Assembly: GCA_044233485.1 (NCBI GenBank)
Contig: JBIIJY010000003.1
Span: 32,481 to 96,480 of the forward strand
Length of the DNA stretch: 64,000 nucleotides
Source of the DNA: Minisyncoccia bacterium
GTDB lineage: Bacteria; Patescibacteriota; Minisyncoccia; Phycocordibacterales; UBA6065
Reading direction: 5' to 3'
Position 1 is the first letter of the stretch. Every line of letters begins with the position of its first letter. The position numbers are program-made. Of this stretch, positions 7,901-10,900 are shown one piece after another.

Positions 7901-10900
7901 CATACCAACGATTCTTAAGCGCATAAGCAACAAACTCATCCCAATCTTCTCCCGCACCGACCCGGACAAGGACAGAGCTCTCTGTCTCTTCTTCAACACT
8001 AATACCTCGTATTTCATTTTTAATCACACAACCCTGGTAAGAATCATTTACAAACAGAGTATTTGAACCTCCCCCGAGAACCATCCGAGGAGTACCTTTT
8101 GGAAGAGATTCTATCACCGCCAGAAGTGCCTCAGGTGAATCAACAGAATACAGGAACTCGAGAGTTCCTGTATTCTTAAATGTAGTGACGTTGGCTATTG
8201 GAACACCCCGCTCACACTTCATTATTTATTTCTTAGGAGTCGTACTAGCTCGCGCCTGTATCTCTTCAAGATTCTTCTTGAACTGTTCAATATTTGGAGC
8301 GAGTTCGTAGGCTTGTTTTGCTGCCGCAACTGCCTGCTTCATGTCACCTATCCCCTCGAATGCCTGCGAAAGGAGCATCAGCATGAGCGGTTTTCGAGGC
8401 TGAAGTTCATTTGCCTCCAACATGAGTTTCAAACCGGCTTCCGGTTTGCCGACATTCATATAGTACATTCCGGCAAAGAGGTGGTAGCGACCATCGGCTC
8501 CGTTTCGTTCAATAATCAGCGGGATCTGTGTTTCCGTGATCGTCATAAAGCTCTGAGCGATAGAACTTGTCGGACCAAAGACTTGCACGACATTCCCCAC
8601 TCGAGTTGAAATCTGTTCAAATGCCTCTGAACTACCGAAAGTGTTCGCGTCGAAGACCGCCTGCCAATCTTTAATTGCTTCACTATACATAACCGGCACA
8701 TATTTGAGACACTGTTCACGATATGCTTGTTGTGCGCACTCTTGTGGGATTGTCATTTTGTTGAGCGCAGTAATAATCTGCGCACTAGCAGTTGCTGGTT
8801 TTATTACCGTAAACCAAAGCGAGACACACAGAAGTACTACCACCGGCACCGCCGCAAGCACTGCCAAATCTGAATCAAACTCACCACTCTCCTGTCTTGC
8901 CTCTGACTTGAATGAGACATAGCCAAGCAGAATGAAGAAGAGCATGTAACTTGTGATGTTATCGAAGACGGCAAGGTTATGTACCGCGTAAGTAACGAAG
9001 AGCGCGAGGATAACTCCCTTCTCTGCCACCGTCCATGCTGGTGTGCGCCAAATGAGCACAAACGCTGATCCGTATATCGCGAGATACAAAAGCAGTGCGC
9101 CAATACCACCAAAAACGAGCCAGTCGAGATAAATATTATGGGTTCGATCAAAGTATGGCTCATGACTTGCCATTCGAGGATCGAAATACTTATTAAAGGC
9201 GTAAATGAAGTTCTCCTGACCCCAGCCGAGTATTGGACGCTCGGTCCAAGCCTTATACGCCATCGGCCACACATAGGCACGAGCCTGAGTCGAAGTGTCG
9301 AAGAAGTTTACAAGATTGGCATAACGACCAAGGATCGGATGATTACGCACCATTGGAACATCTTTCACAAGCCAGAGGGTTCCTGCCAAAAAGATACTCG
9401 TTGTGATGATTGCCACCGCAACTTTACGTAAGACAGGGTGATCGACGGCTTTCCAAATATAGAAGAACGCCGCACTAAGCGCTCCCACAACAAGCGCTAT
9501 CAATGTTCCTCGAGTACCGGTGTAAAAGAGTGCAATGAGGTTGAGCAAAATGACTCCGGCATACGTAACTCGCCAAGCCACATTTGGATAATCCTTAATA
9601 AAAAGATAGGCGGCAATCAATACATGCATCGCCGAATAAATCGCAAGGTAAATAGAGTTTCCAAATGTCGCGTCAACACGAGTGCCACTTTGATGAATCT
9701 GCGCGAGCCCCAAGACCTGGGTGATCGCATAGATACTTGTAATCACACTGACAAACACTGATGTACGGAAAAACCATTTCCAGAGTGGTGCTTCTTTGAA
9801 CACTGACGAGACAACAAAGAAAAGGGCCGTGACATGGAGAATTGTTACGTAACCATCCATACGCTCAAAGTTTGACCAAAAACTCCGGTATGGATTCTCA
9901 CCAAAAAGGTTCGCAATTCCCAAGATACAGGCAAACCCCAAGACTGACCACGTGAGCATTGTAAACTTTGGTCGAAACTCCTTTGTACTTATAGCGAGAA
10001 TTGCCCACGCCGCGAAAGCCACCTCAACTAGTGTTCTAAATAAAAAGTTTTTCCCAGTGATGAAAGGGAAAAACTGTGAGTCAAAACGCACGAGCGGTAC
10101 AAGAGCAAGCAAATATACCGAGGCGAGGATAATCCAAATCAGTGTTTTTTTGAGATTCATACTCATCACTATAGCACTTTTTTGCCTCAGACTCGATTTT
10201 GAAATATGCGTATTTTGTGGTACTTTTTAATCACATGAAGCAGCATATTGTCACTGCCCTCCGCTGGTCTGAAAAGTACACACGAACTGATATGGTCTAC
10301 CTTGCGCACGGCAATTTTTGGCTCGTTGCAAACCGTTTTCTGGCTGCTCTTGGCGGCGTAGCTTTCACCTACCTTTTTGCAAACCTTCTCACCCCAGAAG
10401 AGTTTGGTCGGTACAAGTATATAATTTCACTTGCTGGGTTTTTTGGCGCCCTCTCGCTTTCCGGTATCGGTGGCGGGATTACTCTAGCTGTCACTCAAGG
10501 CAAGCAAAACATTGTCCCAAAACTTGTCCGTATCGCTGGATACTATAGTCTTCCAGCTAGTATCGGCGCCCTCCTTGGTTCAATATATTACTTCACTCGA
10601 GCGAACACAGAACTCGGAAGTGGCCTCCTTCTTATTGCCCTCACAAATTCATTCGCGAGTTTTGGTTTTTATAAAAATATTCTTCTTGGTAAAAAAGACT
10701 TCAAGCTCGCATCACTACTTAACATCCCACGGACTTACATTCCCCTTGCCATCCTGATCACCACCCTCCTTCTAACTAAAAACGTCCTTCTGCTTCTTGT
10801 TGTTTATTTTCTTTCAAACTTTATCTTGAGCTATCTCGTCTATCGAAACACCATTTCTCGATACCAGATCGTAGATAATCCTGAAGGATCGGAATTTTAT

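What the first reader, a model, noticed from the sequence alone, without database searches (positions are those of the whole stretch)
8226..10169. Wzy_C-domain membrane protein with a soluble TPR tail: candidate protein O-oligosaccharyltransferase rather than an LPS ligase
Wzy_C is the catalytic domain shared by WaaL ligases and by protein O-oligosaccharyltransferases (the PglL/PilO type). The latter are often fused to or partnered with TPR modules that recognise protein acceptors. This organism shows no LPS-core genes in the window. The island lies 5-10 kb from genes for giant Ser/Thr-rich secreted proteins (35397..38480 and 38645..40459). A parsimonious hypothesis is that the island glycosylates those surface proteins, as in S-layer or pilin O-glycosylation.
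Basis: inference. Interest (0 to 1): 0.5.

Follow-up and report, generated by a model that had tools for sequence, protein, structure and literature searches.

The report
TPR-tailed WaaL-like surface-glycan ligase
This gene encodes a membrane enzyme of the O-antigen-ligase/protein-O-glycosylase type carrying an outward-facing TPR tail, conserved across the ultra-small Parcubacteria next to a highly variable sugar-synthesis island, so it is probably the last step that fixes their surface glycan onto a non-LPS acceptor, most likely secreted proteins.

Summary
Window 8226..10169 (minus strand) encodes a 647-aa protein with a Wzy_C domain (74 bits) and a helical/TPR tail.

The family is large (2,196 50%-identity clusters at E≤1e-30; ≥594 species genomes) and, wherever hits carried a name, Patescibacteria/Parcubacteria. 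That lineage is reported to be monoderm and to lack LPS.

Gene order is conserved:
- A variable glycan island lies upstream, with a Wzx or a Wzm/Wzt exporter.
- The ligase comes next, then often MurB.
- SecA follows on the same strand in 41/45 loci.

Presence beside both exporter types, together with His rather than Asp/Glu, argues for an en-bloc ligase and against a Wzy polymerase.

A protein acceptor is plausible by analogy with WsfB and PglL but is not shown. PglL-specific Pfam motifs are absent. The proposed link to the two downstream proteins is weak: only one is truly Ser/Thr-rich, and housekeeping genes intervene.

Verdict: an uncharacterised member of a known enzyme kind, of moderate interest.

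The parts
8226..10169 (-). Whole gene: a 647-aa Wzy_C/WaaL-like ligase with a C-terminal helical/TPR tail. The stop codon is 8226-8228. An alternative ATG start lies at 10160.
   Evidence: ORF list; Pfam; 100% identical JGI protein P0001.
8802..10169 (-). Membrane domain, residues 1-456. It has 13 transmembrane helices: a 12-TM GT-C_B core like WaaL, plus an extra TM13.
9081..9554 (-). Pfam Wzy_C match (residues 206-363), including R220 of the TGTRG motif.
   Evidence: R220 is invariant and aligns with E. coli WaaL R215.
9135..9365 (-). Large extracytoplasmic catalytic loop (residues 269-345). It carries invariant R282, R297, P312, G315-W-G317, E337, D341 and H344.
   Evidence: Invariant columns. 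R297 aligns with WaaL R288 and H344 with WaaL H338. The roles of these residues come from PMC10920833 and PMC3643930.
8802..8873 (-). TM13 (residues 433-456). This extra helix carries the C-terminal tail across the membrane to the outside. It continues as a stalk helix to residue 471.
   Evidence: AF2 helix 433-471. The WaaL core has only 12 TM helices (PMC10920833); 353 of the 403 WaaL residues align with the model.
8229..8801 (-). Extracytoplasmic tail (residues 457-647). A helical subdomain spans 457-556 and TPR repeats span about 560-643 (nt 8241-8492).
7206..8222 (-). murB (UDP-N-acetylenolpyruvoylglucosamine reductase), 3 nt downstream of the ligase stop codon. It is probably co-transcribed.
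   Evidence: Pfam FAD_binding_4 + MurB_C. MurB follows the ligase in 27/61 related loci and in L003-L005.
4693..7140 (-). secA, 65 nt downstream of murB on the same strand.
   Evidence: SecA Pfam domains on the source contig. SecA lies downstream on the same strand within 6 kb in 41/45 related loci.
10199..11476 (+). Divergently transcribed Wzx-type flippase (Polysacc_synt), the first gene of the glycan island.
   Evidence: Pfam. A divergent Wzx lies upstream in 21/69 loci and Wzm/Wzt in 22/69.
11473..29976 (.). Variable glycan-biosynthesis island: 7 GT4 and 2 GT2 glycosyltransferases, 5 methyltransferases (3 of FkbM type), a carbamoyltransferase, an SGNH/AlgX-like esterase or acyltransferase, and an AsnB-like amidotransferase. 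It contains no initiating phosphoglycosyltransferase, no separate Wzy and no Wzz. GC content dips slightly in places (42-44% vs ~46% in the flanks).
   Evidence: Pfam; composition profile.

Best explanation
The gene encodes an en-bloc glycan ligase of the WaaL/PglL kind (GT-C_B fold).

Shown:
- It has a 12-TM WaaL-like core.
- It carries the two Arg that hold the pyrophosphate of undecaprenyl-PP-glycan and the His that activates the acceptor hydroxyl, all on the outer face.
- A 13th TM helix places a helical/TPR domain outside the cell, next to the active site.
- It sits at the edge of a variable glycan island and upstream of murB and secA, and this arrangement is conserved across Parcubacteria.

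Inferred mechanism:
- The island's GT4/GT2 enzymes build a methylated, carbamoylated oligo- or polysaccharide on a polyprenyl-PP carrier.
- Wzx (or Wzm/Wzt in relatives) moves it across the membrane.
- This enzyme then transfers it in one step, releasing the polyprenyl-PP.
- Because the lineage has no lipid A-core, the acceptor is something else.
- The most likely acceptor is Ser/Thr/Tyr hydroxyls of secreted surface proteins (S-layer-like proteins, wall-bound proteins or type IV pilins).
- The TPR domain would hold the protein substrate, or a partner of the secretion machinery. This parallels the S-layer O-oligosaccharyltransferases WsfB and WsaB/WsaA of Gram-positive bacteria.

My confidence that it is a ligase-type transferase with a non-LPS acceptor is about 0.8. 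My confidence that the acceptor is protein is about 0.5.
For: - Wzy_C at 74 bits.
- AF2 model with pLDDT 90.8 and pTM 0.90.
- R220, R297 and H344 are invariant in 40 homologs at 35-40% identity. They align with E. coli WaaL R215/R288/H338, which equal PglL R224/R298/H349 (PMC3643930) and 7TPG R191/R265/H313 (PMC10920833).
- The 13-TM topology places the N-terminus inside and the tail outside in 40/40 members.
- 13 TM helices plus a C-terminal periplasmic domain is the architecture modelled for the O-OTase PglS; that paper also ascribes 13 TM helices to WaaL and RodA (PMC12800693), whereas PMC10920833 gives WaaL 12.
- The TPR tail is supported.
- Synteny: SecA downstream in 41/45 loci, MurB in 27/61, a Wzx or Wzm/Wzt exporter upstream in 43/69.
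- Ligases 60-63% identical sit beside different exporter types. The enzyme is therefore independent of the export pathway, as WaaL and O-OTases are.
- The island has no separate Wzy, Wzz or polymerase candidate.
- The lineage lacks LPS and is monoderm (PMC5220378; bioRxiv 10.1101/2021.05.31.446380).
- Precedents: WsfB and PglL have C-terminal TPR motifs, WsaA is a TPR partner of WsaB, the slg loci carry Wzm/Wzt and an AsnB homologue, and transfer is thought to be co-secretional (PMC2943079).
- The window holds at least one plausible acceptor: 38645..40459 has a signal peptide, a PG_binding_1 domain, 25% Ser/Thr and S/T/P-rich linkers.
Against: - There is no direct evidence for a protein acceptor.
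- The PglL-specific Pfam models (PglL_A PF15864, Wzy_C_2 PF11846) do not match the protein, its tail or its homologs.
- No pilin or S-layer gene is adjacent in the four loci with gene tables. TfpO, PglS and TfpM, by contrast, have adjacent substrates.
- The sequence link to E. coli WaaL is weak (hhalign E 0.0075, probability 5%). No PDB chain is hit by sequence with the membrane domain alone.
- The outer loops are almost invariant across the family. That would also fit a single conserved non-protein acceptor.
- No initiating phosphoglycosyltransferase is present in the window.
- One Parcubacterium was reported to lack isoprenoid synthesis (PMC5220378), so the lipid carrier is unverified.
Confidence: 0.5

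Rival explanations
1. It is a cell-wall or lipid glycopolymer ligase. The same chemistry applies, but the acceptor is a conserved non-protein molecule of the monoderm envelope. Candidates are peptidoglycan or lipid II (a job normally done by LCP phosphotransferases) or a membrane glycolipid anchor. The TPR domain would dock onto wall-synthesis proteins or the glycan strand.
For: - murB lies immediately downstream (3-nt gap in the window) and in 27/61 loci.
- The outer-face motifs (FFPFITGKNF, SFWSNFERMxG, RVDATFGN, VFDN) are invariant across a family whose donors are hypervariable. By the logic of PMC10920833 this suggests one fixed acceptor.
- Extracellular TPR partners of wall enzymes exist, such as ActH 7tj4_C.
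- The nearest solved structure is a lipid-glycan ligase.
Against: - I know of no characterised Wzy_C/GT121 enzyme that uses peptidoglycan as acceptor; this rests on my own knowledge.
- The murB linkage is weaker than the secA linkage (27/61 vs 41/45) and may simply reflect conserved core gene order.
- The known monoderm precedents for Wzy_C(+TPR) enzymes, WsaB and WsfB, are assigned as protein O-OTases (PMC2943079).
Confidence: 0.27
2. It is a Wzy-type polymerase. The protein would polymerise repeat units on the lipid carrier, with the TPR tail acting like a built-in co-polymerase or scaffold. Some other enzyme would attach the product.
For: - Wzy_C is shared with some polymerases.
- The window's island has a Wzx flippase but no other polymerase candidate.
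- The 7TPG protein itself is deposited as 'polymerase/ligase'.
Against: - The acceptor-activating position is an invariant His (H344), as in ligases and O-OTases. Polymerase families of the same clan have Asp or Glu there (PMC10920833).
- The gene is equally conserved next to Wzm/Wzt ABC-exporter islands (16 of 38 typed loci). ABC-exporter pathways do not use a Wzy polymerase (general knowledge).
- Polymerases co-vary with their repeat unit and are extremely diverse. This protein keeps 35-40% identity and invariant loops across ≥594 species while the islands change.
- There is no Wzz/PCP gene nearby.
Confidence: 0.08
3. It is a genuine LPS O-antigen ligase (WaaL) acting on lipid A-core.
For: - Databases name it 'O-antigen ligase family protein'.
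- The best structural match is WaaL.
Against: - No lipid A, Kdo or heptosyltransferase gene is in the window.
- All named homologs come from Patescibacteria/Parcubacteria.
- Parcubacteria lack lpxC and kdsA, and the CPR fall in a monoderm clade (PMC5220378; bioRxiv 10.1101/2021.05.31.446380).
- The extra TM13 and the extracytoplasmic tail are not reported for WaaL, described as 12-TM in PMC10920833.
Confidence: 0.03

Closest known systems
WaaL O-antigen ligase (Cupriavidus metallidurans, PDB 7TPG/7TPJ; E. coli K-12 WaaL), CAZy GT121
   Same: - Wzy_C domain.
- Arg/Arg/His constellation on the large outer loop.
- Position next to a variable glycan locus, and indifference to Wzx versus ABC export.
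   Different: - 13 TM helices rather than 12.
- A 190-aa (usually ~270-aa) extracytoplasmic helical/TPR tail.
- Only 16% identity in the structural alignment, with no significant sequence hit.
- The host lineage has no lipid A-core, so the acceptor must differ.
S-layer protein O-oligosaccharyltransferases of Gram-positives: WsfB (Paenibacillus alvei) and WsaB with its TPR partner WsaA (Geobacillus stearothermophilus)
   Same: - Monoderm host.
- Wzy_C enzyme with a C-terminal TPR, or an adjacent TPR protein.
- Placed in or beside a glycan cluster that has Wzm/Wzt, methyltransferases and an asparagine-synthase homologue.
- Slightly lower GC in parts of the cluster (PMC2943079).
   Different: - No S-layer gene was identified nearby.
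- The operon with murB and secA is not described for those systems.
PglL / PglS general and pilin-specific O-oligosaccharyltransferases (Neisseria, Acinetobacter)
   Same: - Wzy_C core with the same Arg/Arg/His.
- 13 TM helices plus a C-terminal periplasmic domain thought to recognise internal protein sequons (PMC12800693, PMC9829042).
- No tight linkage to a substrate gene, as for general PglL enzymes (PMC12645811).
   Different: - The PglL_A and Wzy_C_2 signatures are absent.
- The tail is TPR.
- The PxxGxG motif shared with PglL is also present in the 7TPG WaaL, so it is not diagnostic.
TMTC1-4 and other GT-C enzymes with lumenal or periplasmic TPR arrays (own knowledge, not tested here)
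   Same: Same design principle: a polytopic GT-C glycosyltransferase using a lipid-linked donor, with a TPR array on the non-cytoplasmic side, acting on proteins.
   Different: Different GT-C subclass (GT-C_A, PMT-like), with a Dol-P-Man monosaccharide donor rather than a polyprenyl-PP-oligosaccharide. There is no sequence relationship.
Wzy polymerases and SEDS (RodA/FtsW)
   Different: They have Asp or Glu instead of His at the acceptor-activating position (PMC10920833). SEDS proteins have 10 TM helices. Their context and conservation patterns differ.

Membership tests
Pfam Wzy_C (PF04932) / O-antigen-ligase-related superfamily | HMM score above the gathering threshold. | tested here: met
   74.1 bits against 31.7, residues 206-363; 40/40 homologs match.
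WaaL-type ligase (GT-C_B fold, CAZy GT121) | A 12-TM GT-C_B core that superimposes on WaaL. | tested here: met
   [not shown]
WaaL-type ligase (GT-C_B fold, CAZy GT121) | Two Arg that bind the Und-PP phosphates and a His that activates the acceptor, all on the outer loop. | tested here: met
   R220, R297 and H344 are invariant and align with E. coli WaaL R215/R288/H338. The roles are taken from PMC10920833 and PMC3643930. The profile alignment itself is weak (E 0.0075).
WaaL-type ligase (GT-C_B fold, CAZy GT121) | The acceptor is lipid A-core, and the gene sits in an LPS-making organism. | tested here: not met
   There are no LPS genes in the window. Homologs with a source name are all Patescibacteria, and the lineage is reported LPS-free (PMC5220378). 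The rest of the 681-kb contig was not scanned.
WaaL-type ligase (GT-C_B fold, CAZy GT121) | A match to the CAZy GT121 family HMM. | not tested
   The CAZy HMMs are not available in these tools.
PglL/PglS O-oligosaccharyltransferases | PglL_A (PF15864) and Wzy_C_2 (PF11846) signatures flanking Wzy_C. | tested here: not met
   Neither the full protein (E≤0.01) nor the tail or membrane domain at E≤10 matches. They are not among the 25 most-matched families that were listed for the 40 homologs.
PglL/PglS O-oligosaccharyltransferases | A 13th TM helix followed by a C-terminal periplasmic domain. | tested here: met
   TM13 spans 433-456 and the tail 457-647 lies outside. For comparison see the PglS model in PMC12800693. 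The domain here is TPR, not Wzy_C_2.
PglL/PglS O-oligosaccharyltransferases | Transfer of an Und-PP-glycan to Ser/Thr of proteins. | not testable with these tools
   This needs glycoproteomics or heterologous glycosylation assays.
TfpO/TfpM/PglS pilin-specific O-OTases | A cognate pilin gene immediately adjacent. | tested here: not met
   The neighbours are an exporter (sometimes with a small HTH_17 gene) on one side and MurB/SecA on the other, in the window and in L003-L005.
S-layer O-OTase type (WsfB; WsaB+WsaA) | A Wzy_C enzyme with a C-terminal TPR or TPR partner, beside an slg-like glycan cluster in a monoderm. | tested here: met
   the definition follows PMC2943079.
S-layer O-OTase type (WsfB; WsaB+WsaA) | Sequence relatedness to WsfB/WsaB, and a glycosylated S-layer protein substrate. 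| not tested
   The reference sequences could not be obtained. No S-layer gene was recognised in the window.
Wzy O-antigen/capsule polymerase | Asp or Glu at the acceptor-activating position, occurrence only in Wzx-dependent loci, and high divergence that tracks the repeat unit. | tested here: not met
   His344 is invariant. 16 of 38 typed loci have Wzm instead of Wzx. The outer loops are conserved across ≥594 species.
TPR repeat domain | A TPR HMM above threshold and a helical-hairpin repeat fold. | tested here: met
   [not shown]

The most novel reading that the evidence does not exclude
This family could be the general surface-glycan ligase of Parcubacteria, with a conserved acceptor that is neither lipid A nor an ordinary glycoprotein. 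One version: it glycosylates the cell wall (lipid II or peptidoglycan) directly, replacing LCP-type attachment. A second version: it works co-translocationally, docked through its TPR domain to the Sec machinery with which it is co-transcribed. Either would be a new mode of envelope assembly for a whole superphylum whose envelope is still undefined.
Probability: 0.12. Interest if true: 0.75.

Novelty: new member of a known kind. Interest (0 to 1): 0.42.

Why it matters
The cell envelope of CPR/Patescibacteria is an acknowledged unknown; PMC5220378 states that its 'mechanism of formation and structure ... remain unclear'. My literature searches found no paper that discusses this family.

This analysis identifies the likely terminal enzyme of a hypervariable, O-antigen-like surface glycan pathway. 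That enzyme is conserved in ≥594 Parcubacterial species and anchored beside murB and secA.

This gives a concrete handle on two questions: what these episymbionts display on their surface, and what it is attached to. Useful handles are one gene, three predicted catalytic residues and a removable TPR tail.

If the enzyme is a protein O-OTase, it would extend en-bloc O-glycosylation to a superphylum. It would also add a new, structurally distinct enzyme class for glyco-engineering.

Tried and rejected
2. A 12-TM reading from a crude hydropathy scan would have put the tail in the cytoplasm. I rejected it because the AF2 model shows a further helix at 405-422, and because positive-inside counts fit the 13-TM model in 40/40 members.
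3. The PxxGxG motif (R+15, +18, +20) is listed as PglL-specific in PMC3643930 and is present here. The same motif occurs in the 7TPG WaaL sequence ('hPWtGvG'), so I dropped it as a discriminator.
4. An invariant D403 (with H397 in this copy) in the TM11-12 loop might correspond to PglL H400/E404. The spacing differs and no PglL sequence was available, so this stays a lead only.
5. Promoter and terminator scans over 4300-11600 were at background level and say nothing about operon structure.
6. A cyanobacterial IctB-like transporter reading is not supported: no NCBIfam match appeared apart from weak TPR hits.
7. The afdb50 fold library was unavailable. The spread of the architecture outside CPR, and its relation to named O-OTases, could therefore not be checked.
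8. A close relative (90% identity, L087) has the same island over the ~8 kb of it present on that contig. Island variability is therefore seen only at greater distances.
9. Literature searches for this family in CPR found nothing relevant.
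Full report
**Observation**

The ORF at 8226..10169 is real and lies on the minus strand. It is 647 aa from a GTG start, or 644 aa from the ATG that JGI uses.
- Pfam finds Wzy_C at residues 206-363 (E=1.4e-20, 74.1 bits, threshold 31.7).
- In the full-length scan the TPR matches are sub-threshold.
- The tail is nevertheless a genuine TPR-type domain:
  - Scanned alone, it scores 27.6 bits for TPR_8, above the 25.7 threshold.
  - 38 of 40 homologs hit TPR_8.
  - A profile of the family hits consensus-TPR and O-GlcNAc-transferase TPR structures at E 1e-35 to 1e-20.
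  - The AlphaFold2 model shows eight antiparallel helices over residues 481-643.
- This copy is about 80 residues shorter than the usual ~725-aa homolog.

**Organism and family**

A 100% identical protein lies on a 681,047-bp JGI metagenome contig whose gene order matches the window, a genome size typical of CPR.
- The word-indexed search found 2,726 homologs at E≤1e-5. The best are 35-40% identical. Nearly all combine Wzy_C with several TPR Pfam families.
- Where a source gives a name, it is an 'O-antigen ligase family protein' of Patescibacteria, Paceibacterota, Parcubacteria or Minisyncoccia.
- An exhaustive phmmer search with the membrane domain alone, against 1.84 billion 50%-identity cluster representatives, gave 7,775 hits at E≤1e-3 and 2,196 at E≤1e-30. 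The best 150 are mostly 700-800 aa, so they carry the tail.
The 80 retrieved are all CPR-type MAGs. They include the complete Campbellbacteria genome CP011215.1.

**Fold, topology and catalytic residues**

The AF2 model is confident (pLDDT 90.8, pTM 0.90).
- Foldseek and sequence searches did not find WaaL.
- WaaL is described with 12 TM helices (PMC10920833). This model has those 12 plus a 13th long helix (433-471). A crude hydropathy scan had missed helix 405-422.
- Under the 13-TM model, short loops on the N-terminal side carry 12 Lys+Arg against 6 on the other side. All 40 aligned homologs show the same bias, typically 17-20 against 5-6.
- The N-terminus is therefore cytoplasmic. The large loop 269-345 and the tail 457-647 are both extracytoplasmic.
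- The family alignment has invariant R220 (TGTRG), R297 and H344 (FDRTHN).
- A profile alignment to E. coli K-12 WaaL is statistically weak (E 0.0075). It nevertheless pairs these residues exactly with WaaL R215, R288 and H338.
- Those residues correspond to PglL R224/R298/H349 (PMC3643930) and to 7TPG R191/R265/H313. [quoted passage not shown]

**Genomic context in the window**

- The gene is followed after 3 nt by murB (7206..8222) and, 65 nt further on, by secA (4693..7140), all on the same strand.
- Divergently upstream lies a Wzx-type flippase (10199..11476).
- Next comes an ~18-kb island (11473..29976). It holds seven GT4 and two GT2 glycosyltransferases, five methyltransferases, a carbamoyltransferase, an SGNH/AlgX-like enzyme and an AsnB-like amidotransferase.
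- The island has no initiating phosphoglycosyltransferase, no second polytopic polymerase candidate and no Wzz.
- Its GC content dips slightly in places (42-44% against ~46%).

**Genomic context in relatives**

- Three distant relatives (35-38% identity) show the same frame: island, ligase, MurB, zero to three small genes, then SecA.
- Their islands differ in content. One has a Wzm/Wzt ABC exporter instead of Wzx.
- Across 80 species loci:
  - SecA is downstream on the same strand within 6 kb in 41 of 45 loci with enough sequence.
  - MurB lies between the ligase and SecA in 27 of 61.
  - A divergent Wzx (21) or Wzm/Wzt (22) is upstream in 43 of 69. This is an underestimate, because single queries were used.
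- Among 38 typed loci (22 Wzx, 16 Wzm), exporter type tracks ligase similarity only weakly: the nearest neighbour has the same type in 26 cases, against 18.9±3.7 expected by chance.
- Ligases 60-63% identical can sit beside different exporter types.

**What the protein most likely does**

The enzyme is the conserved element at the border of a variable glycan locus and is indifferent to the export route. That is how WaaL and O-oligosaccharyltransferases behave.
- Wzy polymerases are not needed in ABC-exporter pathways and co-vary with their repeat unit.
- Polymerase families of the same clan also carry Asp or Glu where this family has an invariant His (PMC10920833).
- I therefore read the protein as an en-bloc ligase. 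It would take the polyprenyl-PP-linked glycan once it has been moved across the membrane and transfer it to an acceptor hydroxyl.
- The acceptor is very unlikely to be lipid A-core, for three reasons:
  - The window has no LPS gene.
  - A curated Parcubacterium genome lacks lpxC and kdsA (PMC5220378).
  - The CPR fall in a monoderm clade (bioRxiv 10.1101/2021.05.31.446380).

**Protein or another acceptor?**

The evidence here is indirect.

For protein:
- In monoderms, the Wzy_C enzymes with an assigned role that I found are the S-layer O-OTases WsaB and WsfB.
- WsfB and PglL carry a C-terminal TPR motif, and WsaB has an adjacent TPR protein.
- Their loci contain Wzm/Wzt, capping methyltransferases and an asparagine-synthase homologue. 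Transfer is thought to be co-secretional (PMC2943079). The loci seen here mirror this.
- PglS is modelled with 13 TM helices plus a C-terminal periplasmic domain (PMC12800693).
- That domain is suspected of recognising internal sequons (PMC9829042).
- The tight linkage to secA is at least compatible with action on secreted proteins.

Against protein, or neutral:
- WaaL and O-OTases cannot be told apart by sequence (PMC3643930).
- No O-OTase structure had been solved as of late 2025 (PMC12800693). 'Closest to WaaL' is therefore uninformative.
- PglL_A and Wzy_C_2 do not match.
- No candidate substrate gene is adjacent.
- The outer loops are almost invariant (FFPFITGKNF, SFWSNFERMxG, RVDATFGN, VFDN). 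That fits one fixed acceptor, which could equally be a wall or lipid component.
- murB is next door.
- Extracellular TPR partners of wall enzymes exist, such as ActH.

I put a protein acceptor at about 0.5, a wall or lipid acceptor at about 0.27, a polymerase at about 0.08 and a true LPS ligase at about 0.03.

The island ends at 29976. The two proposed targets start 5.4 and 8.7 kb further on, and 25-28 kb from the ligase gene. A VirD4-like ATPase, IF-3 and a beta-CASP RNase lie in between.
- 35397..38480 (1027 aa) is an LCAT-like lipase with a beta-helix and 16.8% Ser+Thr (z=1.3), which is not exceptional.
- 38645..40459 (604 aa) has a signal peptide, a PG_binding_1 domain and 25% Ser+Thr (z=4.1). 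It also has S/T/P-rich linkers such as TSVVSTPSTPSGYTP.
- That second protein is a reasonable candidate glycoprotein. Nothing ties it to this locus beyond being in the same 64 kb.

**Novelty and interest**

The kind of enzyme and the Wzy_C+TPR architecture are both known. The family is already auto-annotated as 'O-antigen ligase/TPR repeat protein'.

Two things appear not to have been described:
- The family is a widespread, conserved feature of Parcubacteria, anchored between a hypervariable glycan island and murB-secA.
- Its topology and residues fit a working outward-facing ligase in an LPS-free lineage.

This gives a testable entry point into the unknown CPR envelope, but it is not a surprise to a glycobiologist. 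I score it 0.42.

Noticed in passing
window 55256..58711 (-): A 1151-aa isoleucyl-type class I tRNA synthetase (tRNA-synt_1, Anticodon_1) has a histidine-phosphatase domain (His_Phos_1, E=1e-32) inserted at residues 506-670. This is an unusual insertion in an aaRS.
   Followed up: no
window 29978..31798 (-): A VirD4/TraG-like coupling ATPase (DUF87, TrwB_AAD_bind, T4SS-DNA_transf) directly abuts the last glycosyltransferase of the island. A 2025 preprint reports that Patescibacteria carry a monoderm-type conjugation-like T4SS (bioRxiv 10.1101/2025.01.22.634366, seen).
   Followed up: no
window 35397..38480 (-): A 1027-aa secreted or anchored protein combines a right-handed beta-helix with an LCAT-like lipase/esterase domain. 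It fits the phospholipases proposed to attack host envelopes in Patescibacteria (PMC11665869).
   Followed up: partly
window 38645..40459 (-): A protein with a signal peptide, a PG_binding_1 domain and a 25% Ser/Thr body with S/T/P-rich linkers. It is the only real Ser/Thr outlier among the window's ORFs (z=4.1) and is a candidate wall-bound glycoprotein.
   Followed up: partly
L003 7628..7876, L004 7652..7909 and several of L007-L086: A small HTH_17 (excisionase/MerR-like) gene sits between the glycan island and the ligase gene in some relatives (8/69 loci within 1 kb by tblastn) but not in the window. It may be a regulator, or a trace of island mobility.
   Followed up: no
L001 3561..4088 (on the window's own source contig; lies between window ORFs 14189..16069 and 16660..17760): Two small ORFs (119 aa and a 49-aa DUF5989) precede the carbamoyltransferase gene. 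They are conserved in the 90%-identity relative L087.
   Followed up: no
window 52788..54704 (-) and 58877..60520 (-): Two further probable envelope proteins. One is a 638-aa DUF11-repeat protein. The other is a 547-aa protein with no Pfam match, a P/S/T/A-rich low-complexity region and one TM helix. Both are possible glycosylation substrates.
   Followed up: no
L009, L014, L017 and many other loci: Many of the 80 retrieved MAGs carrying this family are titled 'uncultured Candidatus Saccharibacteria' (TPA assemblies), while the other named hits are Parcubacteria/Paceibacterota. Their taxonomy could not be checked here.
   Followed up: no
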